Positions 1-60,462 are shown, numbered from the stretch's first letter. The stretch: 64,000 nt of DNA from Raillietiella orientalis (GCA_036172245.1 JAYWIR010000001.1:806001-870000); one strand, 5' to 3'. The notes: generated from the sequence alone by a model not told the origin. A program made the numbers and translations.

Positions 1-2400
1 ATCGTTCCCGCAGGCGGGGCGCTTCCGTCCGGAACTATTAGCAGATCGACCTCCTCTTCCTGGCGCTTCGACGGCCTCCCGGTTCCTTCCCGAGAGTAGC
101 ACTTTGTCAGGAACGCGATTCCGCGAGGACCTCGGCCCACGAAAGCTTCCCCTCCTTCCCTTGGGACGGCGACCTCACTGTCCCGAGGGAACCGGCACAA
201 CACCGATGCCGGTTGACGCGAGAGCAGTCCCGGAGGTTCCGATCGCCCGATGGCCCGCGCTCCGGAGTGCCTTCGGGAACTGGAGAGCCTGAAGAAGGAG
301 AGGAACTGGGAGCGACCCCCGAGCGCGCGCTGTAGGGCAAGGCGTCCTGGCGGAGGGATCGGGAACCTCCGCCCATGGTTTTCTCTTTCCTCGCCGCGAC
401 CGCCGTCCTCGGATGCGGAGCCTTCGGAGGGCGAACCCGGAACCCTCCGCTCCGGGAAGTGACAGACTGACTGGCGCTTGGAAGGACACGCGCTCCATCA
501 TGGCGCTTGGGAATATTCCGGGAAACTCTCAGTGGACACCGGCGACCTTCATCTTCCGCCCCAATGAATTCGGATCGTGTTTTCCGTCCGAGACTCGCGA
601 AGAGGAGCGCCTTCTCAGGAGACACCGCTCCGCAGCAGTACCGGCGCCAGGAAGGATTGCGCCGCTTGCTGCGTCAAACGACCGCGTTGCTGTCGGTCCC
701 TAGCTCGCAGCATCGAAAAATCCATCCCGGCACAGCAGCACTCTGGCGCTTCCCAAAGGCGTGCCTTTTGGTTAGGCGAGGACGAGGGCGCGAGTAGGCG
801 AGTAGGCGAGGCCGGGAAAGAGCAGATGAGGTACGGGTCAACTCACTCGTTCTCTCCCTAGACAGAAGGCACGCTTGGAGCGTGCCGAAGATTCCGGAGA
901 CTCCACTGTCGCGAGAGCAAGAGAAGCGCAGATCCCGAGGAGGAGTGGGAAAGGAAGCACCATGGAACGGTAAGAAGGTCCGAGTGGGAAGCTGTAAAGC
1001 CTCCGCTCCCGCAGCGTCGAGAAGAAGGGGACGCGTCCTCCTGGTAGCACAGGGAAGGAGACTACGAGGAAAGACGAGGAAAGAGTGGGATGCTGTGCCT
1101 AATGGGTTGCCCTCCCATCCGGCACTTCACTGAAAGGAGAGAGGGGAAGAGAAGAGAAAGAGAAAAGGAGGAGGACGACAGAAGGAGGAAGGGAAACAGG
1201 AGGAGGAGAAAGGGACAGAAGAGGAAGAGAGGAGGAAGGGAAGGGAAGGAAAAGGAGGAGGAGGAGGAGAGGAAGGCATGAGTGGAAGAGTAGAGGAAAA
1301 AGGGAGGAGGTGGAAGAGGAAAGAAGGGCTGGAAAGGGAGGAAGAAAGGATGAGGAAGAAGAGAGGAAGTTGCTGAAGAAGAAAAAAAGGAAAAGAGGAA
1401 GGAGGAGGAGAAGGAGCAAAAGAATGAATGGAAGGAGGAAAAAGAGAGGAGGGAGGAAAGGAAGAAGAGGGATCGGCGATGCTGTCTGAAAAGTCGGTGG
1501 ACCTCCTTCGAAGGCGGTAAAAGTAGGCAGGAGGGATCGAGGACACGCGCGAGATGGTGCCAGGTGCCCTGCCCGGGACGCCAGGTGGCAGGACGAAAGC
1601 AGCCAGGGAAACCCAGCACGGCGTCTTGGCGCGCGCTCCCTAAGTGGTGGCAAGAAGCAACGTTTTTCCCTTCCTCTTCTGCGCTCCGTTCGGAAGGACT
1701 CCATACAGACAACTTCATCTTGGGAGCTAAAGAGGGTGCCCCTCACCACGCGGCACCGAGCGCGCGTGCTCACAGCACCGAACCAGATACCGACCAACGC
1801 AGCACCTACGCAGATGTCGACCCTGTCGCGAAATGCACGCGGTCCAGGCAGCCCAGCATTCTGCCCATGAGACCCTCTTCCCCGCGGTGGTGGTCCAGAG
1901 GAGGCTACGAAAATGGCGCCGACGGACGGACATCCCCAGAGAGACCTTCGCTCGGCGCAAGCCTTGGCTTCCCGTCCACTGCATCACGTCGCTCCTGGAA
2001 ACGCGCCCTTCCCCTTCGCATCCCCTTTGCGAGAGAGTCCTTGGCACAGGGCTGCTGCGAAGGGAACGTCTCGGGGCGGGTACATCGCCGCCCGTGAGTG
2101 GCATTTCCTCTTACCCGGAACCCCACTCCCTCCAGAACCATCTGCCGCGTATCCGGCCGCATCCGCGCGTGCCCATCTTCCGTGGACCGCCAACGTGCAC
2201 TTGAAAAGGAGCGCAGGGAAGGAAAAAGGAAAGGTACCACAGTTGCGGAGGAGCATTTTCTGCTACCCCTCCTTGAAGGACTTGAGATGGGCATCCGAAG
2301 AACTGGCGCGCACGCACACTCGCCCACCGGGAGTCGGGCCTCCACTCGCCTGGCAGCTGCGCCCCGGATAGCCACCAGCGGTCCGGGCATTTGGCCCGAT
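1..2400 (+). mobile_element. Decayed DIRS-type (tyrosine recombinase) retrotransposon, copy A: RNase H, methyltransferase-like and YR remnants; 5' part lies outside the window
   Basis: Frameshifted motifs occur in DIRS order. TDA (~201) and SAFGNW (~266) match RNase H TDAS..G.W; NIPGNS (~512) matches HIPG.LN; LSEKSVDLL (~1483) marks the YR start; RPSSPRW and STASRRSWKRAL (~1870-2010) match ATARRVSELHAL; GAHAHSPTGSRAS (~2305) matches catalytic AHSTR. No intact ORF. Confidence 0.65.
1130..1472 (+). repeat. ~340 bp polypurine (GA-rich) low-complexity tract
   Basis: Almost all G/A on the + strand (gaggag, gaagga, ggaaga units). It produces the spurious F/S/L/P-rich and R/E/K-rich ORFs in the track. 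Confidence 0.9.
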
Positions 2401-2439
2401 TGGGGCGGACCGAAAAAGGAAAGGAAAAAAATAATAACG

Positions 2440-4230
2440 AGAAACGGACGCAGAACATCGATCCGCGGGGCCCGTAAGAGGAGCACCTGGGAGGAAGAGT
2501 GGGCGGAGCTCCCAGCCCGGAGATCGATGGAGCACGGCCGGGAAGAGGTGGGGACGGCGGGTAAAGGATGGGCCGGCCGCCACCCTCCGCGCCTTCCGGG
2601 AGATCAGCTGGCGAGCCGAGCTCTGCGCGGGAGCCAGTCTTCGAAGACGTTGACGCCTTCTCGCCCTCGGAGCCGTCGAGGCAAGATGGTGTCTCCTTTT
2701 CTTTTTTTTCCCGGCCCGGCGCGCGGCCCCTGTAGCCAGCGAAGCCCGGAGACCTCCCAGTGCATTAAGGGCAGGAGGAGAGGAGGGGAGGAGGCGCCCG
2801 ACGGCCAGAGTGCTCACGGTCCTAGATCTCCTCCCCCTCCGCAGTCCGTTCCTCTTGGCTCCGTTCCTGCAGACCCAGAGTTCGGCTTCCGTCTTCGGTT
2901 CTGTGTCCAGCTTGGCTCGCAAGCAACGGCCGGCGTACGGGGGGACTCGGGGGCAGCGCTGCATCCGTGCGAGCGCCGGGTCGGAGAGCCGTCTCCATGG
3001 AAGCGGAGGAGGCTGCCCCCCCAGCTGCTCCCACCCCGGCATCCTCATAGGTGGCGTGATGAGGCCTCTCAGATGTTTACTGCATCATCGAGTGGTGCCG
3101 CGGGGGTTCTGCCCAGTCGGGCGGTCCAGGTCTGAGGTCCTTTTCCAGCTGGGGGAGGGGGAGAGGAGGAACGAAAACGCGTGGAAGAGTGAGGTCTTCG
3201 CCCACCCTCCCCCTCAGTTTTTCCGGATCTGGTCCCTGGTCTGCTTGGAGACCGCCTTCCCCGCCGAACCGCACCGCGGGTCGGGAGATCCCCCGTTTCG
3301 GGGGACGCGAGCGAGCGGTTCACCGACCGCCGTCGCCAAGGGAACGTGGCGAGTCGAGCTGAAAAGGCCCTGAAGATGTCGGGTCAGCACTTCGGATCGG
3401 ATCTCGCGCACCCAAGAGGGAGAATGGGGAGAAACCCCCTCGAGCGGGGTTCCCGCCGCGCCCCTGGGGGATCGGCGACGCCGTCCAGGAAGTCTGTGGA
3501 CCTCCCCCGTTTCCCTTCCCGGAAGGCGGTGAAGGTCGGAAGGGGGAAGGGAGGGGATCGTGGACGCGCGAGAGATGGCGCTGGGTGCACCGCCGGGGAC
3601 CCCAGGCGGCAGGGCGAAAGCAGCCGGTCGAAATCCCAGGAGTGCCCGCGGCCGCATCCCGGAAAGCTCCGCCCTCTCCCGATCACAGGTGGAACGAATG
3701 GACTAAACCAACGGTAAGGGACTGCCTGCGCAGCGTCCCCGACTTTCGAGCGAATCTGCTCGTCCGGCTTTCCGGGAAGTGCCCGCAGGGGCTCAGGAGA
3801 GGGTGGGTCCCCGAGACGTTTTCGCCCCCCCTCCCTCCCTCCTTCCGATTTGCGGGCGTCTCTCCGAGAGACGAGGATGCCTCGCGCCGCTTCAGGAAGG
3901 AGACACGAGACGGTCGGTCGCCTGAGGGAAGACGGCGCGCTCCCTCGGGAACCGGTAGGATGGGGAACTACTGCAGGGGGGAGGGGAGAAGCGAGGCGAG
4001 GTGAGAAAAAAATCAGGGAACCGGGAAGCGGACTCCACGCTCCTGTGTGACCGAGGAACGACGGGAGGCCTCCGAGAAAGGAGGATGCCACGGCATCCTT
4101 GGAGACGGCGGGACGGAGGGTTTCCGCCGCCTCCCTGCAGCCTCTGAGCCCGCCTGACGCCCACCACCGGAAGGCCAACAAACGGCCCACGGGGCGCGCT
4201 TCGACTTCCCGAACGCCTCATCCACAAACT
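2440..4230 (+). mobile_element. Decayed DIRS retrotransposon, copy B (RNase H, MT-like, YR)
   Basis: GKGWAG (~2560) matches DASxxGWG; MFTAS (~3073) matches DLFAS; W..EVFAHPPP (~3182-3215) matches W...YAFPP. 3468-3640 is clearly homologous at DNA level to 1469-1615 (gggatcggcga..gtc..aagtc.gtggacctcc ... gagatgg.gc ... ccagg.ggcagg.cgaaagcagcc). Confidence 0.65.
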
Positions 4231-4329
4231 TCATAAATGATAAATAAAATGTGTGCATGCACGTTACATGCATTCATATTCAGATTAATATGAAAATGCA
4301 TTGCAGAATGCATATTTACTAAGAAACAT

Positions 4330-5365
4330 ACATATTATTAATACAACTGATGATATCCACATAGATATTAGAGACTACGAAAAGTAAATACGCACGTTGA
4401 GTGGATTTTTCTTATTTTTTCCCACCCCATTTTTAACATTACTTGTTCATTTTTTATAAGTCGATATTTATATACACGCATTCAATATGGATTCCTTGCA
4501 TATATAAACATGCATAATAAACATATGTTCATTTCTTATGATCCTCCATACACAATACACGAAAGCAGATTATCGACTCCATTCATAATGACAATTAGGA
4601 AAAGCGTATACACACATGCTTGTTGTGCACATCCATATATGTACAATTTCAGATTAATATGGAAATTTATTTTAGCATATTTTTATTAATTATTTATATT
4701 ATTTATTAATATTTATCCACAAGCATATGATTAATGTTAATGTTATTTTAGCGTGCATATTGTTGTCGCTATTATGCTTTATTTATATTTTCTCTTAACA
4801 TATACATATATATACATGAATACACACATCTATAATGAACATATGTCTATTTCTTATGATCCTTCTTAAACACACTAATTCTCTATCAATACATATTATT
4901 AATTATGTTAACAATATGTGCGTCAACAAATTTCAAAAATATGCACGCTAAATAACATTAACATTAATCATATGCATGTGGATAAATATTAATTAAATTG
5001 CAAGTTAAAGTGATTTTCCATATTAATCTGAAATACAAAAAAGGTACATAAATTAATGTGTACAACAAGTATGTACATATGCTTTTCCTAATTATTATTA
5101 CTGATGTAACTAATAATCTATTTTGATGTATTCTTAATATATGTATGGAGGATTATAAAAGATAAATAGATGCCTATTATGTATATTTACATATGCAATG
5201 AACCCACATGAAATACATATAAAAATATAGAATTATAAAAAAATAATGGGAGCTATTAAAAATGGGATGGGAAAAATAAAAAATGTATTCAACATATATA
5301 TTTATTTTTTGTAATCTTTAATCTGCATATTACCACATATTATTAATTATATTAATAATACGTAT
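4330..5365. repeat. AT-rich long imperfect inverted repeat (foldback), centre ~4845
   Basis: 4647-4665 tttcagattaatatggaaa is the exact reverse complement of 5015-5033. 4705-4761 vs 4938-4993 differ by one mismatch and one indel. Further arm matches: 4367-4436/5256-5322, 4536-4552/5139-5156, 4590-4631/5056-5095. Confidence 0.9.
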
Positions 5366-5559
5366 GTTAATACATATTAATAATGTGTATGCTGACAAAT
5401 CTTAACGAAAACGTATGTCAAAATAAATTTGTACCTTAATCTTTATATAAATATGCATACAGTGATCTATATATGAATACATGTGTTAATAGATAGAGTA
5501 AACTTAAATGTCAATCTATCTATCTATAAATGTGTATATCAAACCATACATGAATATAT

Positions 5560-6620
5560 ACAGCGATTCCAACATTTAAAGCGTATTCGTGGAACATTCG
5601 AATTAATTTTGGAAAAAATGGAACGCAATCCAAAATGACCCTACCGGAAGTGCGGAAAGAGTTTTCAATACGGAAGTGTGTAAAAAATTATTCCTCTCTT
5701 GTGTAAAGAGGCTCTATACACTGAAAGGTTGCTGGGGAAAGAACACGGCCTGGTGTGGAGATTAATCGGAATTTCGTGCCTCCTGTGGATGATGAACCAA
5801 ACCGTATAACCACGTTTGCGGTGGTGAGGGATTTTCCGATGTGGTTGGAAGCGAAATTCGTGGATCAGATGATGATGAAACGGATTTGAATGAGGACGGG
5901 TTGGCTCAATCAATGGAAGACGGCAAACCGAATACAGCTGGTGAGGAAAAGTTCCACTGAGGACCCTGATGAGTCCTTCAAAGAGCCCAGCTTAAAGAAA
6001 TTAGTGGAGGGGTTGAATTTGGCACAAAAGTTAGGAGGTCATTTCAATGACCCCTCCAAAGAGCGCTCGGGAGAACTCAAAAGACAAGTGGACAGTTGTG
6101 TTTGGCTCCGCATCATGAACTGGATAAAAAAAAATGGGAGCATCGTGGTGGGCAAGGAAGGTCTTCCTGTCGACGACTTTTCGATAAGAAAAGTTGGCGT
6201 ACTGCTGAAGCGTACAGTGAGAATTGTACAAATGATGTCGAAGAGATTTCAAGTGGTAACGGCACCCGGCCACTCGTACATAAAGAACGTACTCCAAGTT
6301 TTTTCTTTTTTTTCCCCTAAAAACAGTGATGACGATTAAAAGATTCGCTTCTTTAATTTTGCAATGTATGCATTATGTACAATGAAATTTATGTACAATT
6401 CCCAGTTTTTATAATCTCATGCTATGTATTTGTTAGTTACATAGTTCATGTTCTTTTAATTATATGAATTCTTGAACGAATAAAATATGTTCTTGTTTTT
6501 ATAATAAAAAAAAAAACTCCCGAACATAACTACATTTTGTATGAAACCTCATATAACGCGATTTCTATAACGCGTGATATTTCCGGAACCGAACCTCCGC
6601 GTTACACAAGGGTTACCTGT
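5560..6620 (+). mobile_element. pogo/Tigger DNA transposon 3' remnant (decayed DDE transposase C-terminus plus right TIR)
   Basis: Broken translation PTFKAY..ELILEKMERNPKMTLPEV..TLKGCW..GEGFSDV..SLKKLVEGLNLAQKL..NDPSKERS is typical of Tigger/TIGD transposases. The terminal region with repeated ataacgcg ending cgcgttacacaagggttacctg (~6597-6619) resembles a Tigger TIR. Confidence 0.8.
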
Positions 6621-6719
6621 TTATGTAAATTGGTGTGTAAATATATGTAAATGCATATCTATATGTAAATGTATGTATTATTCTGTATGCGAACGCATAT
6701 ATGAATACGTAGAACAAAC

Positions 6720-9700
6720 ACGGAGATTTTCTTTTCATGGTCCGTCTCGGTGGAGCCTTCCACGCTGGCGATTCTGGCGGGCAGCGCAGGGTTGCCGCTG
6801 CGCGTCCTCATCGTGGGGCGCCCTCGCTTTTCGGGCGCTCACCGCGGAGCGAGGGAGGCGCGCGGTCGCGTGCGGAGCGCACGCACGGAGCATCGCCTCA
6901 GGCCTCGCGTTCATCCACCTCGCGCGCGATTTCCTCCCAAAACGTCGTCATGCCGAATCCTCTGCGGACGCTGGCCGCGGGGTTCCCCCTGTCGATCCTC
7001 CCGAACCCGGGTAGAAGTTCATCAAGTCGGAAATCCGGGCGCAGACTTCCGCAAGGCGCTTCGTCCGCCGCGACCCTTCCCCCGTATTGGCTGTCCCCAC
7101 GCGCGAAATCCCCGACCGCTCGCCCGACGAATCCCGTCTTCCGCCGCTGATCCCGTTCCCTTTTGTCTGGCGGGCCGGCCTTTTAAGACGTCGATCAGGC
7201 TGCCGTCCAGCAGCACCACGCAGCCCTGCCCCCACCAGCATCCCTTCTATCCCGCAAGAGCCATCCCTTCCTTCATCGCCATCAGGGTTTCTCCTCCTCG
7301 CTCTTCCTGCCGTATGGACTGCATGCCCTTCTGTGGCTGCCCTTCCTATCGAGAGTGGAATGCCCGCGCCCTCGCGTCTCGAGAGGGCCTCACGGCCCTG
7401 CCCGCGGTCCAGGTGCCTCCTAACGAGGGAGGCATCGAGCTGCGGCGCGGCAGGAAATGCTCGGAGACTCGGAGGCGAACCCGTGCGTCTCCTGGCGTCG
7501 CATCTGAGGAGCGCCGGAGTCTGCCGAGGGGTGCGCGTGGGGTCCGCCCTCCCGGAAGAGGCTGCTCGCGAGGGACGAGGGGAGGAGAGGACACAGGTGT
7601 CGTCAGAGTCGAGGGGAACAAGGACACAGGGAGGAAGCGCATCGAAATTCTTTGACAGCGGCCCGCCCATTAGCTGCCAGAGACTCTACGGGAGTCCAGG
7701 AAAAATGCAAGGAGGAAGCGATGCTAATGAGAGACAGGCAGGCAGGCCCCGAAGGGGGAAAAGGCAACTCCGTCGAAAAACGGAGATAGCCCCTCCCCAG
7801 CGACGCCAGCAGAGGGAAGACCTGCAAGAGCGGACCCTTCGGGCTAGCACCACGTGCTGCTTCAAGCACGCTGCAGGTCTCCGGGGCGCGCAGGGAGAAC
7901 GTTGCGAGGGTGGAGGCGCAGGGCGAACACCGCGGGTGAGCCGGCTGGATGCACAGGTGCTGATTCGGAAGGAAGCAACCGCCAGCCGTCCGCGTATCTT
8001 CTTCAAATGGCAGGCGCATGGGAACACACACTCCGGAGAAGAGAGAGGAAAATTGGCGGGAACCGGGGGAGCAGAAAGTGTTCAGCTCGAGTCCCGTGCG
8101 GTCATCGGGAACGAGAACGAACATGGAACGCCATTATCACGCGGAAAGGCAGGAGTCCCGAAGACCGAGGGCGGGAATGCGAGCCGGAGACCCAAGAAGG
8201 CCCCTTCGTACGCGGCGCGCTCAGTGCTGCCAAGTGCGAGCGGCTTTTCGGCTCGAGAAAACAACAGCGGTGGCTCCTGGAGACGTGTGGAGGCGCCAGA
8301 AGGGTTCTCTGAAAGGGAGGGAAAGCCGACTCCGGAAGGAGAAAAGGCGAGAGTGCGGAGAAGGGAACCGACCGAGGCATGCACCCCCATCAGCACCACC
8401 TCCTTCGTGGAGCTACAGAGTGGCACCTGGGTAGGTGGCTGTAAGAGAACTCCATTCTCCATGGTTGCCGTCCAACACGAAAAATCGAGCAGACAAGAAG
8501 GTCGGCTCTCCCCATCTGCGAGAAGCTACGGTAGCCGAAAAAGTTGGCTGCCATCCGAAGAAAGAAAAAAAAAATTGCAAGTTGGTCCATCGTCATGGAT
8601 AGGGAGCGACTCTGAAGAACAGTTGCTCCATCGCATCTCCACCGGTAAGCAGGGACCTTGAAGAGCAGTTGCCCCATGGGTAAGGAAGAACCCTGAAGAG
8701 CAGTTGTTCCATCGCATTTCCAGGGGTAAGGAGGGATCTCGAAGAGTACTCGTAGGGGCCTTGTGTCCTTTTCCTCCTTTCTCCCACTTTGCCTCTCTGA
8801 TAACCCACAAGTCATTTCAGCACCCAACTCCTGGTTGCTGATTCCCGGATTATCATCTGCAAGAGACGGTGACTTTCAGGAGTCTGGAAGGTGGATCCAT
8901 CGTCTTCCTAATGAAACCCAGGCTGCTGCGGTCTCGCACCTTCTATGGGGAGAGACCACTCGACCACGGTTCTTCCTTGCGTTTTTTCTTTTGTTGTTTT
9001 TTGAAAGTCAAGGATTCCAGTCGAGGATTCCCGCTCCGGCCCCTTTCTGAGACCTCCAGATTCTCTGTCGGGAGATGGAAATCGTCCTGAAGTCACAGAG
9101 TCGCAAAGGCTCTCCTGCGAGCTCAAAGCAGCCGGGAGGAAGCGCCCTCTGCTGACCAGCGCACCTGTCTGGGAAGTCGGCCGACTTCGCTCCCGGGAGC
9201 TCGCGCGACTTTTCGACACCCACGCAAGGCAGGACGTGGGGTCTGAAGAGTTGATGCGGAGTAGGGTCACGCAGGAAAGGGGGGGCTTCTGGAATGTGTT
9301 GCTCCGCGAGCAGCATGGTCTGTTTCCCTCTCAAAGAAGGAAAATGAATTTCCCTTCTCGGGCTCGGGTCCTATGTTATCAGGTATGCGTAAGTTCTGAA
9401 GGGAGGAAATGCAGTCCACCGTTTGCTCAGACAGCGAATTCATCGAGTTCTCATAAACAGTGGCATATATGCATAGTAATACCCTAGCGCCAAAACATCT
9501 GAAACTGTAAAGGTCTCCATCCAGGGAAGCTTCCTGTGGAGTCGCAGGCAGCCCGGCAACATGTCCAGCAGGAACGGAGTCTGGGTGGCGTGGGACACCT
9601 TCCAGCAGGAAGCAAACCCCCCTCGTTAGAAGGAAAAGGAAAACTCCCGCGGGCATACCAAAGAGGGTCCAGGTACCCGCACCATGGCACGCAGGCAGCG
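6720..9700 (-). mobile_element. Decayed DIRS retrotransposon, copy C (RT to YR) on the minus strand
   Basis: Minus-strand remnants in order: GG(L)..PFLLDMLPGC (~9620-9550) matches the RT start GGRL..PWVL.IV..GY; SLGFI (~8925-8910) matches LGF.IN.EKS; ARWMN (~6925) and an AHSTR-like stretch (~6885) mark the YR end. Confidence 0.55.
8578..8747 (+). repeat. Degenerate 35-46 bp tandem repeat (3-4 units)
   Basis: Units begin tgaaga(a/g)cagttg at 8613, 8659 and 8694 and continue ..ccatcgcat.tcca..ggtaag.aggga. Confidence 0.85.
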
Positions 9701-10479
9701 GCCAGCGTGGGATGCGACGGGTCCAGGCGGAAGTCCGCGGAGCAGAGCACCCTCACCTTCGCGGGAGAGCCTCCGGGAAGGGAAGGTGGGTCGAGTGGAC
9801 CGGCGTTGGCTTCCCGTAGCGCGCGCGGTCCCCTCCCTACAGCCGGGGGGATGTTGCAGGAGCGTTCGAGTGCGCACGCGTGAAATCAGCAGGGCGGGGA
9901 AGGGGGGCGTAAACGCGACTCCGCAGGGTCACTCTTGCTCCGCGGCCAGTGGCAATGATTGGTCGGTGCCAGCGGTGCCTCCGGCGGTCTCTTTCCAGGA
10001 TGCAGGCGGGAATGGAGGCTGCGAGGGAGAGAGGAATCCCTCCAATTCCTCCCCACACGTGTGTGCGGCGCGAGTGCCCCAAAGCCTCGGGCGATTTTTT
10101 CTTTTTTCTTTTTCCTTTCCTTTCCTTTTTTTTCCTCCTCTCCGCCCGCCCTTCTCTGCTCTGCATCCGATCCTAGCTTCTCTCGAAGCGGGCCACGTCT
10201 TGCTGGAGCACGTGGATCCTAATAATCTTCGAATTAGGGTCGCATTATTGCACCACAATGCAGCGGCCCACCCCAATCCGCGGGCACAATGCGCGCGAAA
10301 GTATCCTCCCATTGATGCAAAACAGGGAAGCGTAAGGGGAGTCACGCGTGTACAAACACGCTCTTTCGTTTTTTTTTTTTTTTTCTTCTTTTTTTTTTTT
10401 CATTTTTATTTTTCCCACTTCCGCCCTCCTTCCTCCCCCCCGGGAAATTCGAGGCTGAAGAGAACGCGCACGTGAGGTG

Positions 10480-10895
10480 GCGCCTAGCAGCTCGTCCTTC
10501 CGCGCTCACTACAAGCGCCTGCCAAGAGAGGGGGGGGGGAGGGGGGCAAGCGAAGCCAAAGTTTCCTCCTTTGTGGATCCCCGAAACGCCCTCTGGATAC
10601 CCCACGGATGTTTTGGGGGGAAAACCCCGCGACTCGAGAGAGGAGCACCCAGACGTCCAAGCGTTTTCCCGACAAAGGGAGAGAGCCCTGGAGCCGTCCG
10701 CGAGTGAATGGGGACGCTAATCCCCGTCCAGGACGCGCGCGCGGGATCGGTTCTCGGAAAGTGGATACGCATGCTGAATTGGTTGTCCATACTTTGCGGT
10801 CAGATCGATACGATATGCAAGGATGCCTCCGGGGAATCAAGTAAACTGGATGCTGATGCTCACCGATTGCACGAAACAACCCTGAGCTTCATCTA
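10480..10895 (+). mobile_element. PIF1-like helicase fragment (Helitron relic), partial tandem copy
   Basis: 10752-10893 aligns closely with 11581-11724 (ttggttgtcca.actttgc..tcagat.gat ... caaggatgcctccggg.aatcaagta ... gctgatgctcaccgattgcac). AHYKRLP matches GDFYQLP and MLMLT matches GARVMLT. Confidence 0.55.
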
Positions 10896-10904
10896 AAGAA
10901 AGGG

Positions 10905-12320
10905 AGGAGGCATTGTCTTGAAGGTGCAGCGGGGGAGCTGGCTGGAAAACGGGAAAGGTGAACGCAGGAAAATTCTGACGCAGGAATGTGACGTTATGAG
11001 GAAGGTGTGTGTTTCTCCATGAGCGAATTACATACAGGTCTTCAATTAAGGGTTAAATATCCTTTGAGTGAGGAGAAAATGGCAGTTTTCTCTCGTCTTT
11101 GGCTTCGACCTCCCATACTCCCATTCGGAGAACACGGAGACCTTGCGAAGAGCACCTCAGGTGATCCTCTTAAACGTACTGATGCAAACAGCGAGTGCAA
11201 ACGACTGCCGGAAGGGAACTCAGGAAATGGAAGTCACGGCAGGTGATTAACGGTTCACGAAGGAGTAAAGATAAATCAAAACCATTTTCGAACACTCCAT
11301 CCCAGACAATACTAGGGGATTTCAGACTACATTCAAAAATGAATTTATTGCTGAAGAAACATCAATAGCAGCACACAATGGAAAAGTTGGCTGCCATCTG
11401 CTGCAACAGTGGACGAAAGCCCAATGGCTATTTCAAACAGTGTCTGATCAAAAATGGTTTCGAAGTTAAACTGTATAAGGAAAAAGCAGTGTGTCCCCCT
11501 CACGGTTCCCGGAATGGCCCGATCGGATTTGAGAATCATACTTTTGCATTATCCCCTGCTTCCTCAGGTTTATAGGAAGTCTTTTGAAAAACTCTGGACC
11601 CGCATGGTATTGGTTGTCCACACTTTGCTGTCAGATTGATCTGACACGCAAGGATGCCTCCGGGCAATCAAGTAGAGTGGAGGCTGATGCTCACCGATTG
11701 CACAGAACAGCCCTGCACTTTGTCAGCCTCCTGGAAAAAGTGCTCGAGTCACGGTTCAGATACTCCACGATATGTATAAAACTTACTTTGCAGCTTTCGG
11801 GTGTTCGACTTCGGAGAAACTCGAAAGGCTTGTTCGAAAACGTGGATAAGGCTTTCCATTGTTTTGTCAAATTTAATGCGACTCATTTTGTCATACGTGC
11901 CCAATTTTGGTGCCCCGATGAACGCAGATCCTCAAGTGTGAATATTGCCAAATTTCCCCTCCTCCCCCCCCCCAAAACGAACACGCCTGCGGCAGAAAAG
12001 GATCGCCAATTTGGGGTTACCGCAAACCAACGCTCTGTAGCAACGTCTATCGCAAGTGCAATGGCATACGACGGAGAAGTGTAGTGCTTCGCCGTCAATT
12101 GCAAAGGTATTTTCGCAAAAATTACAAAAACTTCTGCGTTGGCAGTCACTGGTAATCCACAAGAACGAACCACGGACTCACGATTCCATGATAAGGAACA
12201 CGATTCACCACGAAAGGAAATTTCATCTACGGTTCTCTCTCCATGAGCCTTCGTAGGAAAGCCGTCAGCTCTGCTGCTGACGCCAACATTGCATTTGCTC
12301 AGAATAATTAGCTGGAACAA
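10905..12320 (+). mobile_element. Decayed Helitron/Helentron PIF1-family helicase
   Basis: SGGAGWKTGK (~10929, Walker A like SGGAGTGKS); KPFSN..ILGDFRL (~11279-11330, like PFGG..GDF.QL); KLNCIRK (like LNRIR.G); WRLMLT (~11677); RQF..QVQWHTTEK (~12004-12080, like RQFPL..HKVQG.T). Many stops and frameshifts. Confidence 0.65.
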
Positions 12321-12993: not shown

Positions 12994-14395
12994 TTAGCGA
13001 GGACACATGGCATGCCTGCCTCCATCCACTGGTAAAGAGACACCAGTTACAAAACCAGACATCTCAGTTGATGCTAGAAATGCAATAGCTTTGGCAACCT
13101 CTTCGGGTTGCCCATGTCTTCCCAGAGCATGAGTCTGCTGACATCTTTCCAGAAACTGAAATCATCATACTTGTTGCTAACACACTGTGCAGGGAATCAC
13201 AATGCACATGCTCACACCTGTTGATAGAGTTCATCAGTAAGACCACCCCTTTTCTGCAATGATGTTTCTATCACACCCGGGCTAAAATACCAGCATCAAT
13301 ACTATGTTATTTCTTTCACCTACTCACTTTACACTATTTACTCTTACTTGTTTGGAAGCAAGCTCTAAAAACAAAAGCAGTGAATGAATATTGGTTACTA
13401 TGGTATTACCTAATGCCACACACCTTGTGAATTGGTCAAGAGCAGCTTTGGACATATTGTAGGCCAAGACACCAGGAAACTAAATGCAACTGACTATGCA
13501 GGGCATGAAATTCTGGTACTCACAGATCGCATTCCATTAACACTTGACACATTTACAATTGATCCTTTGCTCTCAATCAAATAGGGTACAGCCAACATTG
13601 TTAAATGATAAATAGCTCTGAAATCATAGCTTTCTGATGAAATATGCTTCTCACACCATAAAAGCAAAGAAAAAGAAGAGTGAGAGTTTACCCAAAACAG
13701 TAAGAGTGAGAAAGCTGAAACAGTGAAACAACTATTCACATATTTAACAATATTACCTGACTTTTCTTTTTTACTTTTTGGAACCTTATTTATTTATAAA
13801 TATCAGTAAAAAAAAAAAAAAAAAAAAAAAAGGATGGGGGGGGGGACTGGGTAATCTGGAAAAATTTCGGAAGCTCACCTAACATTGATGTCAAATACTT
13901 TATCATATTGCTCCAATGAAGTAGTTTCAATTGTTCCAAATTCCGCTATTCCGGCACAATTGACAAGTACATCAAGTTTACCGAAACGAGTTATCAACTT
14001 GTCTATTAAACTTGCTCTGCATTTCCCATCGACAAGATCTCCGGCTACCAGCAGAGGATGTGAACTTTCGGAACATGATGCCGCCACCTTTTCAAGTTGT
14101 GACAGATTTCTTCCAGTCAAACACACTTTTGCACCACAAGATGCCAAATACACTGCTGTAGCTGCACCGATTCCGGAACTGGCACCTAAAATGTGAACAT
14201 CCACAAAAGGGAGTAATGCAAAACACTTGAAATACATTGTACATCAAAGTATTAATTTTTTTTTTTTTTACCGTATGCGCCTAATATTCACATTCATTCC
14301 ATCATTAACTTTTGAAATGCAGACAGCAAACTGTATTCATATACGTTCATACCTGTTATTAAGGCCACTTTCCCCAAAAGATTTGGGTAAGCCAT
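12994..14395 (-). CDS. Classical short-chain dehydrogenase/reductase (FabG/glucose-1-dehydrogenase-like), 7 exons
   Basis: Exons 14395-14353, 14185-13879, 13617-13524, 13479-13410, 13364-13328, 13281-13218 and 13155-12994 join in frame through GT-AG introns. Motifs TGASSGIG, LVNCAG, IVNVSS, catalytic YNMSK, VRVNSVNPG and ..[12 protein letters not shown]. Confidence 0.95.
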
Positions 14396-17624: not shown

Positions 17625-17947
17625 GCAGTAGCTCCTTGCATTTCGCTCCCTGGTGATTTGGTCTACAACATGTCCAGAGCTGCTCTCGACCAACTCACAA
17701 GGTGTGTGGCATCAGGCAATACCATTGTAACCAATAATCATTTGCTGCTTTTGTTTTTAGAGCTTGATTCCAAACAAGTAAGAGTAAAGAGTGCAAAATG
17801 AGTGGACCAAAGGAAATGGCATAGTTTTGATGCTGGTATTTTAGTCCCGGTGTGATGGAGAAACCATTGCAGAAAAGAACTGGTCTTTCCAATGGACTCT
17901 TTCAACAGGTGTGAGCATGCTCTTGTGACTCCCAGCATAGTGCGTTT
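17625..17947 (+). pseudogene. Inverted partial duplicate of SDR exons 4-6 with their introns
   Basis: Colinear with the reverse complement of ~13180-13495. Acceptor AG->CG, donors GT->GC and GT->AT, catalytic YNMSK->YNMSR. Other exons are absent. Confidence 0.92.
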
Positions 17948-20563: not shown

Positions 20564-23500
20564 ATGTCAAAGTACTCTGATTCATACTTATTAGACCAGC
20601 TTCATGTCAGAGAAGTAAGATATTTCGTTTTCATTGACTTTGTTTTCATCAAGGATAATTTCTCGATATTTTGTTGTACTGTTTTGTTTTCTTTGTAGAA
20701 TCATATATCATTTATTTAATTCTTGTTTTTTTTTTCTCTCTCTTTTTTTTTTTAATGAAATTTTCACTCCAAAAATGGATTATGGACTTTTGAGGGGGGA
20801 ATGCTATGAATCAGTATTGATAATGAGAGTGTATTTCATCAAGTGATAGTAACTGAATTAATTCTAGCTTTGGGGAGATGTGAATTTCCGTATGGTGACT
20901 CGCACTACAAAATTCTTCAAAAAGCTACCCAGCAGACTCGTGTTTAAGCTAGCAGAGATTGTCCCATTTACTGCATTGGAATTTGGGTATTTCGTTGATT
21001 AAATTGAATTTAAATTTGTGATACTCTTGTAACTCGTAACTCTGTTTTAAATTCTACTTATTGAGTGTTAAAGCAGAATGTTATACCATATTTAGATGTA
21101 AAGATTCAGAACTTGGGGGGAATTACAATAGTAGGCAATAATAGGACCTCAAGAATCTAGCAGCAAAGATCACCTATAAGCATTTTGAAATTTGTCAATC
21201 TAAATCATATTCAATGTTGAACTGTTAGAGTTTTGATAGGAATGCTTCATAAGAGGTAATTGATAAATGTAAGAGGGAGACTTGTCTTGTATATATTTTT
21301 CAGAAAGATACCTCCAGGAAGTTTTGCATGAAATTATCATTTTATGTAGCAAAAATTTTGCACCTAATGTCTACCTTATTTTCTTCTTTTTTTTATAACA
21401 ACAGTCTGGAACTGAAGTGGAATTTTACAGTATGGACAAACAATTGAACCTCAATTTAAAAAATTGAATACAAACCACAGCAAATTTTGTGTTTTTAAGG
21501 TGGTTTGAAAGACCTCGAATTGTTATATGAAAATATTGCTTATTTTTTATGCTAGAATGTTTCAAATGTACCGCAAAGTTTTATGGTACATTTTCCATCA
21601 GTAAATTAAATCCCTTGAAGAATTGTCTTCAGAACCATGTGTGCATTGAGAGTGCAAGTATGGTTTTCAAAACTGGGTTCACAAAAGAGTAGGAACTGAT
21701 TTGTACCATTTTGAATGTGGCACTTTCTTGTTCTGCAGATCAAAAACTAATTTTTCACAGGGGCAGTGTGCATTTACTTTAGTTTTCTCAAGTGTATCAG
21801 AATTTGGTAGTGGTGTTTTGACCAAGAGTTATTGAAGTAGCATGTCTGTTAGGAACTGCAGTTTGCATTCTGTAATCTTAGGAATTTAATTGATTTAGAG
21901 ATTTTTGCAAAGGAACATGTTTTTCATTTCGTGTTAGCAGAGTTTTTTGTTTTGTTTTAGGAATGTGTCACACCTTGCCAGTTATTGAAAACAGAAAAGC
22001 AGACCTGTGAGTTTTTGTAATACCATCGTTTGTTTCATTTCCATGTATTAGCCTGGTTTTAGCATCAGCAGCTTGTTTATAAATTCATTATTAATGTCAT
22101 GTGCATACTGAGTTTTCATTTTTGCTTTAAAAAGAAATTTCTGGGAAATTTGTTATTAAGGTTAGTTCTGTGTTTCTGTTATTATTTGTGCAGATGACAT
22201 CAATATGTGTAAGCCTCCATGCTTAAGAAGCTATTGGTTTTCATTTTTGTATCAAATTAAATCTGAATGTCAATCATGGCCCATTTAGTGATAGTTCTTT
22301 CACATTGAAATTTAATCCAGAAATTGCAAATGCATTCATGTTTGAGATTTTGCCATCCCTTGTTTTTTGTTTAAGTGTGGACAATTTTGTCAATGTAAAT
22401 AAATTGGATTGATATGTGGATAGGGACTCTCCATGTGTCCTTATTTTTGGTGAATTGGAAAACATGTATTGAAGTTCCTTTGGTTATTCTTTACAGGTTT
22501 GAGCAACTTAGGGCTTGTGTTCGGTGGAAAATTTTCAAATTCCTACTTTATCTATTACTATTCTAGTTGTGTGTAAATTTAGTAATTTACACACAACATT
22601 TAGTAATTTAGATAGTGTTTCAGTTATGGGTTTGAGGTCCAACATGTTTTTTTCTGAATCTGTATTAAATCATACCCTTGCCTCATATTAAAAATTATTT
22701 TTATTAAGTTTTGCATCTAATGCCCTCGAGTCAAAGTGCACAGTTATAATCATTCATTGGTTTTAGTCAAAATTAAAAAGATCGCAAGTAATGTATGCAA
22801 AAACTATGTAAAAAAAAAGTATATGCGTTTCATTTTTCCTCGAATTTATAGACCTACAAATCATCACAGTTCTGCCCACATTCTGTTTGCAGGCACATTT
22901 TCCTGGGATTCAGCAGATGTGGCCAGTTCTTAATATCGTATACACAACTGATGGATGAAAGTGATCATCCTTCATTTCTTCCTTTTGTGTGCAAATATCG
23001 ATTGCATTGGTGGCGCTTTGTCCCTTATTGTAAGGCAGAGAAAGTTGCAGAAATTCCTTTATTTGGAGATCAAAAAATAAGCAGTATTTTGTTTCTGAGT
23101 GTGAATTATTGGCCCAGTTGCTTGGAACGAATTTTGGTTTATGGTTACAGGTTAGTCTTTGATCCAAATTTTAGTTGCGGAAATCATTTTTGTTTGGCAG
23201 TGATAAATCAGAAGAGAGTCTCCAAACATGCCATTGTTATTTAACCATTACATCTGTACCCTGTTTAAATGCTTGCACTTCATGCCAGGCCGTTCATGCA
23301 AAGCAGAAGGAAGGTATAAGCTTGTAATCATCATCACAAATAAGTACTTGAAGATTTCGAGATTTCAGAAAACTGTGACCAACTAGTAACTGGTTGTTTG
23401 CAACATGCACTGACTGTCCATACAAGCTATGATGTAGTTCGTCCATTTCCCAAGTTTTATCCGCGTATTTCAATGAAATTAGATGGAATCGTTGTTTTAA

Positions 23501-25393
23501 ATACTGGCAATTTTCTTCATATTTTAACTGTTGATCTTGATTTTTTAAAAGGCCGACTGGATGATCAAGATCAGAATGTAGCACCTAGGTAAACGTCGCA
23601 AAAAAAAAAAAAAGTCTTTAATGTATCTTCCTGTAGGCTTCCCGATTATGTTGAAGATGATTCAAGATTCAGCCATTTCAGTGTACCTCTCAGTTTGAGT
23701 ACATCGATTGAATCAGAGCTAACCATACCATATTCTCCAGGGACAGAAGCCAAGTAAGAATCGTCAGTTCCTTTGCCTGTGCTAATGTCTATTATAGATC
23801 ACCATTTTGCATACAGGATAGAGATATTCTCTCTCCTATATCTTGCAATTCTGAGGAGTGTTTTGTAGATGAAATTGCAAGGCACAATAGCCTGGAAACT
23901 ATGAATCGATCTCTTTTGTGTCTTTCCGTTAAAAGCAAATCATCATCAAGGCAGATAGGGAAATGTACTGCATGCATAGGAATTCATCCTCGATTGTCCC
24001 CATCACATTGTCATAGTTCCTTATCTGTTGCAGCACGTCCATCAAGTTCAATGGCTGATAAGGAATATGAATTTCGAGGAGAAGGGGCAGATGAAACTCC
24101 ACCTGTTCATGAAAAACTTAGTGCTTTTCGTAGGCGACGTCTCGCCGATAAGAAATATGAATTTTCTGATGAAAATTCTGAAAACTGCGTGCCCATATTT
24201 CGTAGTCGCTCTCAAGATATGGATAATTATGTCAGGGATACTGAATTGAGTTCTGATATAGTGTGGAGAAATGCATTAGCGGATGCATGCAGTAATGATG
24301 GTGACAAAGTGTTGCGACCAGTCAATCATTATCATACCAATCGGATAACTTCATTCAAGGAAAAGGATGGCCCCAAAAACTGTCCAATTGGTTTGACAAA
24401 AAGGAAACACGAAAATTTCCCTCCCTCAAATGAAGGATCTCAGTGGGTAGTCGAGTTCTTACGTCAGTATGTTGAAGTAGAAGATGAGCTGTTATCCGTG
24501 ATCACAGATGTTGAAGGTTGGAAATACAGTGTTTTTTTTGTTGTTTTTACATCATTATATTGTTATAGATGAAGATTTCGTATCTGGAACAGGATATCAT
24601 CATGCCTTGCCTCTGGAAGTGCATGGCAGTGCCTATAATCAAATGCAAATGGTTTCAAAAAGTAAAGCAGAGAGACTGGTAACCTTAACGATTATTGTGT
24701 GCACGGGTATCAATTTCATTTCATTTCATTTGCAGATCTGCCCCTCGGTACTAGTCAGGCAGGTTACATTGGATGTGGAACAATTTTGTCATGAAGTAGC
24801 AGAGAGTATTTGCGCTCAGGCTGGAAAGAAGTATTGGTTTTGTGTTGATTTCGATGTTGAGATTATTGATGTGAGATTACATTTCGCATCTTATATTTCG
24901 TGGCATCACATATTATAGATTTGGCCGGATCCTGCTGAAGTGATGTGTGTTGCTGTTATGGTTTTGCAAGCTACAAATCGGGCCAGAAACCAAAAGTTAG
25001 AATCACATGAATTGATTATTTTTTTCCAACGGTTATGTTCTAGGACTTCTGGGAACGGATCACCAAGAAAACAATATCAGACATCCTTTCAATTCGTATG
25101 GAGGATGAATACAGGACATTATCAATTGGTGGATACAGGAGAGCTTGTAGAGACAAATGCTACACATCCCTATGCAGATATATGGCATCCAGCAAAGGAA
25201 CTAAGCAGTGCCTTACGCAAGCAGTGTTGCTGGAGTGCTCTTACGGACACGGATGTTCAAGTAATGACCAACGTTGCAGAGCTCCAAGGTATTTTCACAT
25301 AAAGTTTGTGACACCCTATTAACCATAATTTGCATAGGAATTTCACTGAGAGTGATCATGAATGCTGAGCACCTTGTAGCCGTTGTTATTTAA
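20564..25393 (+). CDS. DCAF15: DDB1- and CUL4-associated factor 15 (CRL4 substrate receptor)
   Basis: Exons 20564-20614 and 20868-20986, then a run from 22893 to the stop at 25391-25393. FKKLPSRLVFKL..GHIFLGFSRCGQFLISYT, YRLHWW, CLQHALTVHTSYDVVRPFPKFYP and QVTLDVEQFCHEVA match DCAF15. Start exon inferred. Confidence 0.9.
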
Positions 25394-39560: not shown

Positions 39561-40415
39561 AGAAGCCAGCTAAGTTTACTCAAGGTCGTGTTTTGTACTG
39601 GCTGAGTACGGTAGCCCACTGCTCGAACATTTTAATGCCAACTCACTTTATGAAAAGCACCTGCTGCTAAAAGTGATTTTTACGGTGCACCTTGGCTTGC
39701 TAGTTTTAAGAGCATCTCCACTGATGGGGATTTGCTCTTGGAATGCATGGAACAAGTCTGAGACTAAGAGTCAGTTCGGTTCCCAAGCAAAGTTGCCACC
39801 GATAGCAGCTCTACGCGCAACGGTGTTGAAGATGGAATAGGGATATTTGCAAACAAGAATTAGAATCGTAAGATGGCACCGAAAATCCGACATTGATGAG
39901 CACTCTGCCTATTGAAAACATTGGGAATTGGGGAACACTCCGAACAGTATGCTCGGTGATGAGAGGGCTTTCCCTGCGGAATACCATTACTGTTTCAACG
40001 GGAAACTGGAATCAACGATTCGATCTCTTTCACATGGAACACTAGAGCTGACGTTCCCCCCCCCCTCCCCCATTAGGATCGGAAACAAACCGCTTCCAAG
40101 ATAGCCATAAAAAATGGCAAGGAAGGCATGGACAGCATCGGTTAAAAAGAGTCGAGTCCCCGCGGTGGAAGTCCTCCCGATCCTTCACGGGGCGTTGCTT
40201 AGGGTGACCCTGGACTGTGTGATGCCATCCCAAGGAAAGGAAGAGGTCCGTGCTGCGAAAATTGGGACCCGTCTTTCGATTCCTACAAACAGTGTTTGAG
40301 TTTGAGGCATGGGATGCAGAGCCATAGTCAGCATGCTTTGTGCAATAAGATTGCTCAAATACTTTTGCATGAGCTTGAGAATGTAAAAATCATTTTGGTC
40401 CAGAAATCGTTGTCA

Positions 40416-54726: not shown

Positions 54727-60462
<5,736 letters not shown>

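What the first reader, a model, noticed from the sequence alone, without database searches (positions are those of the whole stretch)
4367..5322. Foldback arms diverge in one direction: left arm G/C, right arm A/T
An ungapped 42-nt alignment of 4367-4408 (attagagactacgaaaagtaaatacgcacgttgagtggattt) to the reverse complement of 5281-5322 (attaaagattacaaaaaataaatatatatgttgaatacattt) has 11 differences. Ten are transitions with G/C on the left arm and A/T on the right, none go the other way, and one is a G/C transversion. The same trend appears at 4590-4631. The inner arms (4705-4761/4938-4993) are nearly identical, so divergence rises toward the GC-rich domain that ends at ~4230. Both A/G and T/C differences occur, so preserved RNA wobble pairing does not explain it. 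Inference: this is the edge of a local AT->GC drive, either extreme GC-biased gene conversion or an undescribed targeted mutational process. The alternative is RIP-like C->T decay of the right arm.
Basis: partly seen in the sequence, partly recalled or inferred. Interest (0 to 1): 0.72.

Follow-up and report, generated by a model that had tools for sequence, protein, structure and literature searches.

The report
Old AT-rich foldback with lopsided arms
A 1.2-kb imperfect hairpin-forming repeat in an animal genome has one arm slightly richer in G and C than the other, most likely because that arm lies beside a very GC-rich block, which is an ordinary regional composition effect and not a new mutational process.

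Summary
The literal observation is exact. In the 42-nt pair, 10 of 11 differences are transitions with G/C on the left arm.

That stretch is the extreme of a weaker trend. Over the full arms (4325-4765 / 4934-5368), the left arm holds G/C against A/T 46-50 times and the reverse 18-24 times. This range covers six gap schemes, with p 0.0006-0.003. Outside the discovery stretch the counts are 36-40 vs 18-24, p 0.02-0.06.

The bias does not change with position. Arm identity does not fall gradually: it is about 75%, then steps to 97% in the inner 64 nt.

The element is a mirrored tandem array of a ~390-nt AT-rich unit that folds as one hairpin (z -14). It is not RIP, not RNA wobble conservation and not coding. 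CpG decay explains only 9 of 53 differences.

Polarising with internal paralogues leans toward GC gain on the left side, but it depends on the alignment. No outgroup sequence could be obtained.

Three of four repeat pairs in the window have the GC-richer copy in the GC-richer surroundings.

Best reading: the arms are drifting toward different local GC equilibria, probably through GC-biased gene conversion beside the GC block. This is a known kind of effect and of modest interest.

The parts
1..4230 (.). GC-rich block (63% GC, CpG observed/expected 0.93) that abuts the foldback. This is context, not part of the repeat.
   Evidence: Composition. No Pfam family in any of the 41 open frames of 80 codons or more that touch it. 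No homology to the repeat unit even in purine/pyrimidine code.
4240..4324 (+). X: partial outer copy of the ~390-nt unit, paralogous to 4625-4714. It is the copy closest to the GC block.
   Evidence: Direct repeat 4279-4309 / 4648-4678 at 81%. Four-way alignment: X has 32% GC against 25-27% for the other three copies, and its unique changes are 7 W>S, 1 S>W and 2 neutral.
4325..4765 (+). Left arm of the foldback (unit U2 plus the start of unit U3). 27% GC, 10 CpG.
   Evidence: blastn against the right arm gives E 3e-63. Global alignment. CpG list.
4367..4408 (+). Discovery stretch, left copy. It lies within a cluster at 4344-4404 with 17 left-G/C differences, 2 right-G/C differences and 2 G/C transversions.
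4702..4765 (+). Inner left arm, about 97% identical to the inner right arm. Inferred to be a recent arm-to-arm conversion or template-switch tract.
4766..4933 (+). Spacer. It holds M (about 4780-4905), a direct tandem paralogue of left-arm 4465-4597, with an 81% identical block at 4820-4872 / 4502-4554.
   Evidence: alignment score 82 against a shuffle mean of 39.6, z 6.9.
4934..5368 (-). Right arm, the mirror image of the left arm. 21% GC, 2 CpG.
5281..5322 (-). Discovery stretch, right copy.
5369..5488 (-). Y: the mirror copy of X. It holds a 25-nt tandem repeat that begins in the right arm (5349-5417).
   Evidence: Direct repeats 5328-5406 / 4884-4962 and 5376-5442 / 4963-5029. Inverted pair 4266-4285 / 5465-5484. 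Tandem Repeats Finder output. Four-way alignment.

Best explanation
The AT-rich island 4231-5560 holds an old inverted duplication of a short tandem array of a ~390-nt unit. The order is X-U2-U3 | spacer | U3'-U2'-X'. As a single strand it can fold into one long hairpin.

The arms have diverged by about 0.25 substitutions per site. The inner 64 nt are the exception: a later arm-to-arm conversion or template switch made them alike again (inferred).

Since the duplication, each arm has drifted toward the base composition of its own neighbourhood. The left arm lies 100-500 nt from a 63-74% GC block, on a 29-30% GC plateau. The right arm lies in the 18-24% GC interior. The result is a 2:1 excess of G/C on the left arm at sites where the arms differ.

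The most likely force is the one that keeps this genome's GC content so uneven: recombination-linked GC-biased gene conversion. It favours fixation of A/T-to-G/C changes and hinders the reverse within a few hundred bases of the GC block. Ordinary AT-biased mutation acts on both arms at the same time.

Shown here: the structure, the asymmetry, its robustness and the absence of a gradient. Inferred: the force and which arm changed.
For: Structure:
- Arms match at E 3e-63.
- 4325-5368 aligns to its own reverse complement, with mirrored tandem junctions.
- The hairpin has dG -177 kcal/mol, z -14, and 0 of 20 shuffles fold as well.

Asymmetry:
- 53 vs 26 of 79 informative differences, p 0.003; GC 27.4% vs 21.3%.
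- 46-50 vs 18-24 under six gap schemes, and 49 vs 20 in ungapped blocks only.
- Transitions (42:20) and transversions (11:6) lean the same way. This fits a fixation bias better than a single deamination process.
- The GC profile shows a 29-30% plateau at 4300-4599 against 18-24% at 4600-5499.

Polarisation leans toward gain on the left:
- Left-arm-specific changes against paralogue M are 9 W>S: 1 S>W in the MAFFT three-way alignment. The right arm has 8:8.
- X-specific changes are 7 W>S: 1 S>W. Its mirror copy Y has 7:5.

Generality: in 3 of the 4 repeat pairs found in the window, the GC-richer copy lies in the GC-richer 500-nt flanks. The counts are 49:24, 24:13 and 15:6; the exception is 10:4 the other way.

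Literature: GC-biased gene conversion is held to shape insect GC landscapes (PMC10978632, abstract and outline seen). It is also held to produce local runaway GC in gerbils (PMC7403616, abstract start seen in the listing).
Against: - Direction is not established. With pairwise-anchored alignments, the left-arm-specific changes drop to 1-5 W>S against 0-1 S>W. Most differences are then assigned to the right arm (8-13 W>S and 10-12 S>W where the match spans at least 121 columns, 5-7 and 4-6 in the two shorter matches), so the 4555-4600 part depends on the alignment.
- In the robust core 4465-4554, the left arm has 2 specific changes and the right arm 15 (6 S>W, 7 W>S, 2 neutral; scheme 1,-1,-3,-1). 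GC-biased conversion alone does not predict this.
- M may not be a clean outgroup. Its 81% block suggests a later exchange with the left arm.
- Parsimony in AT-rich DNA inflates apparent W>S changes (my own estimate, about 1.9:1 under neutrality; inference, not computed by a tool).
- Fisher's test of 9:1 against 8:8 gives p 0.087.
- The bias shows no decay with distance from the block, which a simple conversion-tract model would predict.
- Outside the discovery stretch the evidence is only p 0.02-0.06.
- No recombination, polymorphism or outgroup data could be obtained.
Confidence: 0.55

Rival explanations
1. GC loss on the right arm only. The ancestral unit had about 27% GC. The right arm (and M) decayed toward the AT-rich equilibrium by ordinary AT-biased mutation, including methyl-CpG deamination. 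The left arm changed little, because it is constrained, unmethylated next to a CpG-rich block, or was refreshed later.
For: - In the core 4465-4554, paralogue M agrees with the left arm at 15 of the 17 polarisable left/right differences there: 2 left-specific against 15 right-specific changes, of which 13 are W/S-informative.
- In the 37-column block of the four-way alignment, the left arm has 1 unique change and the right arm 4.
- The left arm has 10 CpG and the right arm 2. CpG observed/expected is 1.15 against 0.40, with 0.93 in the GC block and 0.54 in the rest of the window.
- If all changes fell on the right arm, per-site rates would be 53/121 S>W and 26/320 W>S, giving an equilibrium GC of about 16%. 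This is arithmetic on the counts. It is plausible for this AT-rich DNA.
Against: - Where they can be polarised, the right-arm changes are balanced: 8:8 and about 10:9. There is no excess of GC loss.
- Only 9 of 53 left-G/C differences lie in a left-arm CpG. Without CpG sites the bias remains 44:25.
- There is no sign of coding constraint on the left arm. Differences by codon position in the 105-codon open frame are 22/22/27, and the frame itself has P 0.03 by simulation.
- The few left-side-specific changes are mostly W>S.
Confidence: 0.25
2. Patchwork by ectopic conversion. Clusters such as 4344-4404 and 4555-4634 were copied into the left arm from GC-richer copies of the same repeat family elsewhere in the genome. 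Alternatively, the two arms descend from different family members.
For: The direction of the differences is patchy: 28 runs against 35.9 expected, P 0.027. The cluster at 4344-4404 has 17 left-G/C against 2 right-G/C differences within 61 nt.
Against: - No other copy of the repeat exists in the 64-kb window.
- None was found in the two collection scans.
- The mirrored tandem junctions argue for one in-place inverted duplication.
- The patchiness is partly due to a run of 5 right-G/C differences at 4668-4684, in an indel-rich stretch that borders the 13-nt tandem repeat at 4678-4713.
Confidence: 0.08
3. Chance plus selective reading. The first reader picked the most lopsided 42 nt of an old repeat, and the remaining asymmetry is sampling noise.
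For: Excluding 4367-4408, the bias is 36-40 vs 18-24, with p only 0.02-0.06. A GC difference of 6 points or more occurs between 19% of adjacent 440-nt windows in 12-63.5 kb. The longest same-direction run is unremarkable given a 2:1 bias (P 0.14).
Against: The whole-arm binomial p is 0.0006-0.003 under all alignments. The same sign is seen in 7 of 8 50-nt bins from 4300 to 4699. The same dependence on surroundings appears in 2 of the 3 other repeat pairs.
Confidence: 0.08
4. A targeted or repeat-induced mutational process: either RIP-like C-to-T decay of one copy, or an undescribed local AT-to-GC mutator.
For: There are 10 same-direction transitions in 42 nt.
Against: - The window is animal DNA: DCAF15, USP, ACSF4 and SDR exons are present, and the best DCAF15 matches are crustacean. 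RIP is known only from fungi (established knowledge, recalled).
- By my reading of the sequence, only 2 of the 10 changes in the discovery stretch are in C-before-A context, with 4 in CpG and 4 in CpT.
- Over the arms, the C-before-A share is alike in both directions: 28/53 and 12/26.
- Both strands are hit in alternation.
- Transversions lean the same way.
- The overall bias is only 2:1.
Confidence: 0.04

Closest known systems
Footprints of GC-biased gene conversion: weak-to-strong biased, clustered substitutions near recombination hotspots, as described in human fast-evolving regions and in gerbil 'runaway GC' regions
   Same: Both show a local excess of G/C at diverged sites. Both transitions and transversions are affected. 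The differences are clustered. The site lies next to a strongly GC-rich segment. For PMC3157837 and PMC7403616 I saw only the abstract starts in the search listing.
   Different: The direction of change is not polarised here. The bias is modest (2:1). There is no decay with distance. No recombination or polymorphism data exist for this locus. The comparison is between two paralogous arms, not between species.
Repeats and pseudogenes drifting toward the GC content of their surroundings (isochore-context evolution of Alu, L1 and processed pseudogenes; recalled, not looked up)
   Same: Copies of one sequence placed in different GC surroundings acquire different GC content. In this window, 3 of 4 repeat pairs follow the rule.
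   Different: Here the two contexts are only about 600-1000 nt apart inside one AT-rich island, far below isochore scale.
Large sex-chromosome palindromes kept alike by GC-biased arm-to-arm conversion (PMC8981503 and PMC3723533, abstract starts seen in the listing)
   Same: Both have inverted arms around a spacer. The inner 64 nt here are about 97% alike, which suggests arm-to-arm exchange.
   Different: Those palindromes have arms more than 99% alike, and conversion raises GC in both arms equally. Here the arms are about 75% alike and the GC difference is between the arms.
Template-switch correction of quasipalindromes (PMC8604942 and PMC7954356, abstract starts seen)
   Same: It would explain the homogenised inner arms next to the spacer.
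   Different: The process is described for short-range inverted repeats. Here the spacer is 168 nt, and the event itself is inferred, not shown.
Foldback or long-terminal-inverted-repeat transposons with internally repetitive arms (Drosophila FB and Galileo; recalled)
   Same: Both have long inverted arms built from tandem subrepeats, are AT-rich and form hairpins.
   Different: There is no transposase or any Pfam family in the island or beside it. I saw no target-site duplication when reading the ends (not tested formally). No second copy is present in the window.

Membership tests
GC-biased gene conversion footprint | Excess of weak-to-strong over strong-to-weak substitutions on the affected lineage, polarised by an outgroup | tested here: inconclusive
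   Left arm 9:1 against right arm 8:8 in the MAFFT three-way alignment with paralogue M. With pairwise-anchored alignments the left arm is only 1-5: 0-1. X is 7:1 against Y 7:5. Fisher p is 0.087. M is a doubtful outgroup.
GC-biased gene conversion footprint | Bias affects transitions and transversions alike (a fixation bias, not one mutation type) | tested here: met
   Transitions 42:20 and transversions 11:6, both toward G/C on the left arm. The transversion count alone is not significant.
GC-biased gene conversion footprint | Coincides with high recombination, and W>S derived alleles segregate at higher frequency | not testable with these tools
   No genome is held and no sequencing run was listed.
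GC-biased gene conversion footprint | Effect decays with distance from the hotspot | tested here: not met
   Direction against position: Mann-Whitney p 0.28, or 0.89 without the bins from 4650 on. GC forms a plateau of 29-30% at 4300-4599 and then steps to 23%.
Repeat-induced point mutation (RIP) | Fungal genome | tested here: not met
   The window carries metazoan-type genes: DCAF15_WD40 at E 2.8e-26, plus ACSF4 propeller, UCH and SDR. The best DCAF15 relatives are malacostracan crustaceans at 32-34% identity.
Repeat-induced point mutation (RIP) | C-to-T changes concentrated at C-before-A (recalled definition) | tested here: not met
   The C-before-A share is 28 of 53 for left-G/C differences and 12 of 26 for right-G/C differences, so there is no enrichment.
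Methyl-CpG deamination decay | Differences concentrated at CpG, as CpG to TpG or CpA | tested here: not met
   Only 9 of 53 left-G/C differences lie in a left-arm CpG and 1 of 26 in a right-arm CpG. The bias without CpG sites is 44:25. CpG decay contributes but is not the main cause.
Structured RNA hairpin under selection | Differences keep pairing (G-U wobble or compensatory change) | tested here: not met
   28 transitions keep and 34 break pairing for the plus strand, and the reverse holds for the minus strand. No Rfam family matched in the window.
Foldback / MITE-type transposon | Terminal inverted repeats | tested here: met
   Arms 4325-4765 / 4934-5368, extending to about 4266 / 5484.
Foldback / MITE-type transposon | Several copies in the genome and a target-site duplication | tested here: inconclusive
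   There is no other copy in the 64-kb window. The genome is not available. The palindrome ends are fuzzy, and I saw no duplication by eye (no formal test).
Protein-coding exon in the left arm | Open frame with differences concentrated at third codon positions, or a family match | tested here: not met
   The 105-codon open frame at 4372-4686 has P 0.03 by Markov simulation. Differences by codon position are 22/22/27 (chi-square p 0.70). It has no Pfam family.

The most novel reading that the evidence does not exclude
The GC-rich block 1-4230 is an active, sharply bounded AT-to-GC conversion hotspot whose influence reaches only about 400 nt into neighbouring DNA. The foldback would then act as a built-in two-copy recorder of that drive. 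The copies on the block side (X and the left arm) have gained G/C in clusters, such as 17:2 within 4344-4404, while their mirror copies 600-1100 nt further away stayed at equilibrium. That would be an unusually short-range and strong GC-biased drive for an arthropod-like genome.
Probability: 0.12. Interest if true: 0.6.

Novelty: new member of a known kind. Interest (0 to 1): 0.25.

Why it matters
If the asymmetry is a footprint of GC-biased conversion, inverted or tandem duplicates that straddle GC-block edges could serve as internal controls. They would measure how far and how strongly the bias acts in a genome with extreme GC heterogeneity, without needing an outgroup for the total asymmetry. 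As it stands, this is one modest example of copies drifting toward their local composition. It does not call for a new mechanism.

Tried and rejected
**Outgroup and other copies**
- No whole genome is held for this window.
- For 4000-5800, no sequencing run was listed. This means none was listed, not that none exists.
- A metagenome scan with a 20-nt core shared by both arms gave 1 locus. It matches only 29 nt at 93% on an unrelated 120-kb contig, a chance hit.
- A scan of prokaryote genome contigs with a 23-nt inner-arm stretch gave 0 matches.
- The window itself holds no further copy.

**Taxon**
- Three protein searches were run. The ACSF4 exon gave 1 plant hit at 27%. The DCAF15 exon gave 18 hits, the best being malacostracan at 32-34%. 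The DCAF15 N-terminal exon gave 0 hits.
- The Atlas search gave only prokaryotic propeller clusters.
- The species stays unknown. It is an animal, probably an arthropod.

**Rejected readings**
- A coding exon in the left arm.
- RNA wobble conservation, and no Rfam family.
- RIP.
- The GC block as a transition-converted continuation of the repeat.
- CpG decay as the main cause.
- A distance gradient.

**Polarisation**
Polarising with paralogue M gave different answers under MAFFT and under pairwise anchoring, so I treat it as unresolved. My first script for this overlapped the left arm with M and was discarded.

Full report
**1. The observation**

I aligned 4367-4408 without gaps to the reverse complement of 5281-5322.

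The stretch is part of a much larger inverted repeat. blastn pairs 4325-4765 with 5368-4934 (461 alignment columns, 71.6% identity counting gaps, E 3e-63). It finds no other copy in the 64-kb window apart from two short internal direct repeats. Folded as single-stranded DNA, 4360-5330 forms one long hairpin: -177.4 kcal/mol against -80.8 +/- 6.9 for 20 shuffles, z -14.

**2. The whole arms**

- A global alignment of 4300-4770 to the reverse complement of 4930-5400 has 441 aligned columns, 349 of them identical.
- The left arm has G/C where the right has A/T at 53 sites (42 transitions, 11 transversions).
- The reverse holds at 26 sites (20 transitions, 6 transversions). A further 13 differences do not change G/C content.
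- The binomial p is 0.003. GC is 27.4% on the left and 21.3% on the right.
- Within 4325-4765 the counts are 46-50 vs 18-24 under six scoring schemes, and 49 vs 20 in ungapped blocks only.
- Leaving out the discovery stretch gives 36-40 vs 18-24, p 0.02-0.06.

So the bias is real, but it is 2:1 and not unidirectional. Once a 2:1 bias is given, a run of 12 same-direction differences is unremarkable (P 0.14). The directions are somewhat patchy, with 28 runs against 35.9 expected, P 0.027.

**3. No gradient**

Identity per 50-nt bin is 0.78, 0.70, 0.72, 0.79, 0.78, 0.70 and 0.81 from 4300 to 4649. It then rises to 0.84, 0.98 and 0.94. This is a step, not a rise toward the GC block.

The direction of the differences does not depend on position: Mann-Whitney p 0.28, or 0.89 when the bins from 4650 on are left out.

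GC per 100 nt is 29-30% at 4300-4599 and 18-24% from 4600 to 5499. The drop at the block edge is abrupt, from 74% at 4100-4199 to 35% at 4200-4299.

**4. Anatomy**

Sensitive self-comparison shows that the island is a mirrored tandem array of a unit of about 390 nt. From left to right it contains:
- X (4240-4324), a partial unit paralogous to 4625-4714;
- U2 (4325-4714);
- the start of U3 (4715-4765);
- the rest of U3, called M here, which continues in direct orientation through the 'spacer' (about 4780-4905, paralogous to 4465-4597, with an 81% block at 4820-4872 / 4502-4554);
- the mirror copies: U3 start (4934-4996), U2 (4997-5368) and X, called Y here (5369 to about 5488).

Both tandem junctions are mirrored, so the tandem array existed before the inverted duplication (inference).

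The inner 64 nt (4702-4765 / 4934-4996) are 95-98% alike. I read this as a later arm-to-arm conversion or template-switch event, which is not shown. Such events are described for short inverted repeats (PMC8604942 and PMC7954356; abstract starts only).

**5. What it is not**

*RIP.* The window is animal DNA. It carries exons of DCAF15, a USP-type hydrolase, an ACSF4-like enzyme and an SDR, and the best DCAF15 relatives are malacostracan crustaceans at 32-34% identity. The C-before-A share is the same in both directions, 28 of 53 and 12 of 26. C>T and G>A alternate on one strand.

*RNA wobble conservation.* 28 transitions keep and 34 break pairing, and no Rfam family matches.

*Coding constraint.* The left arm does hold a 105-codon open frame (4372-4686, P 0.03 by simulation). 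However, arm differences fall 22/22/27 over the codon positions, and it has no Pfam match.

*CpG decay as the main cause.* The left arm has 10 CpG and the right arm 2, but only 9 of the 53 left-G/C differences lie in a CpG. The bias without CpG sites is 44:25.

*A GC-converted continuation of the repeat.* In purine/pyrimidine code, 3900-4245 aligns to the unit no better than random sequence (P 0.13-0.69). The control arm pair scores 66 against a null mean of 18. The edge at about 4230 is therefore a junction of unrelated sequences.

**6. Which arm changed?**

No outgroup could be obtained, so I used the internal paralogues.

*Three-way alignment with M (MAFFT).*
- Left-arm-specific changes: 9 W>S, 1 S>W, 1 neutral.
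- Right-arm-specific changes: 8, 8 and 1.
- M-specific changes: 31.

*Pairwise alignments anchored on the left arm.*
- Left arm: 1-5 W>S and 0-1 S>W.
- Right arm: about 10-12 S>W and 8-13 W>S.

The two methods differ in the low-complexity stretch 4555-4600. In the robust core 4465-4554, the left arm has 2 specific changes and the right arm 15 (6 S>W, 7 W>S, 2 neutral). The 81% block suggests that M exchanged sequence with the left arm after the duplication, so M is not a clean outgroup.

*Four-way alignment X, L, R, Y (79 ungapped columns).*
- X, which touches the GC block, has 7 W>S, 1 S>W and 2 neutral unique changes, and 32% GC.
- Its mirror copy Y has 7, 5 and 2, and 25% GC.

Taken together, the left-side lineages look W>S-biased and the right-side lineages balanced. 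However, the numbers are small (Fisher p 0.087 for 9:1 against 8:8). Parsimony in AT-rich DNA also overstates W>S (my estimate, an inference). Direction therefore leans toward GC gain on the left but is not settled.

**7. Is it special to this locus?**

A self-comparison of the whole window found four repeat pairs of 80 nt or more. In three of them the GC-richer copy lies in the GC-richer 500-nt flanks:
- the foldback: 49:24, flanks 41% vs 30% GC;
- 13179-13489 / 17946-17636: 24:13 toward the copy with 46% flanks;
- 1469-1604 / 3468-3625: 15:6 toward the copy with 66% flanks.

One pair goes the other way: 10762-10884 / 11595-11715, 10:4. The foldback thus follows a rule that seems general in this window.

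**8. Explanation**

This is an old in-place inverted duplication whose arms are drifting toward different local GC equilibria. The most likely force is recombination-linked GC-biased gene conversion beside the GC-rich block, acting against the general AT-biased mutation. This force is held to shape insect GC landscapes (PMC10978632, abstract and outline read). It is also held to produce local runaway GC in gerbils (PMC7403616, abstract start only).

The main rival is loss of GC on the right arm with a slowly changing left arm. Ectopic conversion patches, chance, and a new targeted process follow with low weight.

**9. Verdict**

The feature is real and the literal observation is correct. Its strength and shape were overstated. 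The gBGC-type reading is plausible but its direction is unproven, and the RIP-type reading is rejected. I file it as a new example of a known kind of effect, with interest 0.25.

Noticed in passing
window 1-4230 and 6740-10500: Two non-coding-looking blocks of 60-75% GC with abrupt edges lie in an otherwise 30-40% GC window. CpG observed/expected is 0.93 in both, against 0.54 in 12-64 kb. None of the 80 open frames of 80 codons or more searched in and around them (one of which lies in the left arm) has a Pfam family. A 548-codon open frame at 7015-8658 translates to low-complexity R/G/P/S/A-rich sequence. Their nature is unknown.
   Followed up: partly
window 5561-6300: A 45-48% GC stretch lies between the foldback island and a second AT-rich patch. 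It has open frames of 89-149 codons without any Pfam family. By recall it resembles the tail of a decayed DNA-transposon gene, but this was not tested.
   Followed up: no
window 13179-13489 and 17636-17946: An inverted repeat pair of 312 nt at 84% identity lies about 4 kb apart and brackets the short-chain dehydrogenase exons (13497-14243, minus strand). The copy in the GC-richer flank is the GC-richer one (24:13).
   Followed up: partly
window 6540-6620: A CpG-dense short segment sits inside an AT-rich patch (6301-6739, 29% GC), which has CpG observed/expected of 1.72. It may be the end of a mobile element.
   Followed up: no
window 4372-4686: A 105-codon stop-free frame runs along almost the whole left arm. 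It is rare for such AT-rich DNA (P 0.03 by simulation), has no coding signature and no Pfam match. The best frame of the right arm is 62 codons.
   Followed up: yes
window 22852-25300 (+), 28262-28669 (-), 40200-43705 (+), 55316-55642 (-), 59970-60275 (-): Compact animal genes with introns of roughly 100 nt: DCAF15, a ubiquitin carboxyl-terminal hydrolase, an ACSF4/beta-alanine-activating-type enzyme (AMP-binding domain plus propeller), a tyrosine/dual-specificity phosphatase fragment and an ion-transport fragment. The nearest DCAF15 matches are crustacean, at only 32-34% identity.
   Followed up: partly
window 1133-1472: A purine-rich (GGA/GAA-type) degenerate tandem repeat tract lies inside the first GC-rich block. 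The 1001-2000 window has a strong strand skew (GC skew 0.25, AT skew 0.45).
   Followed up: no
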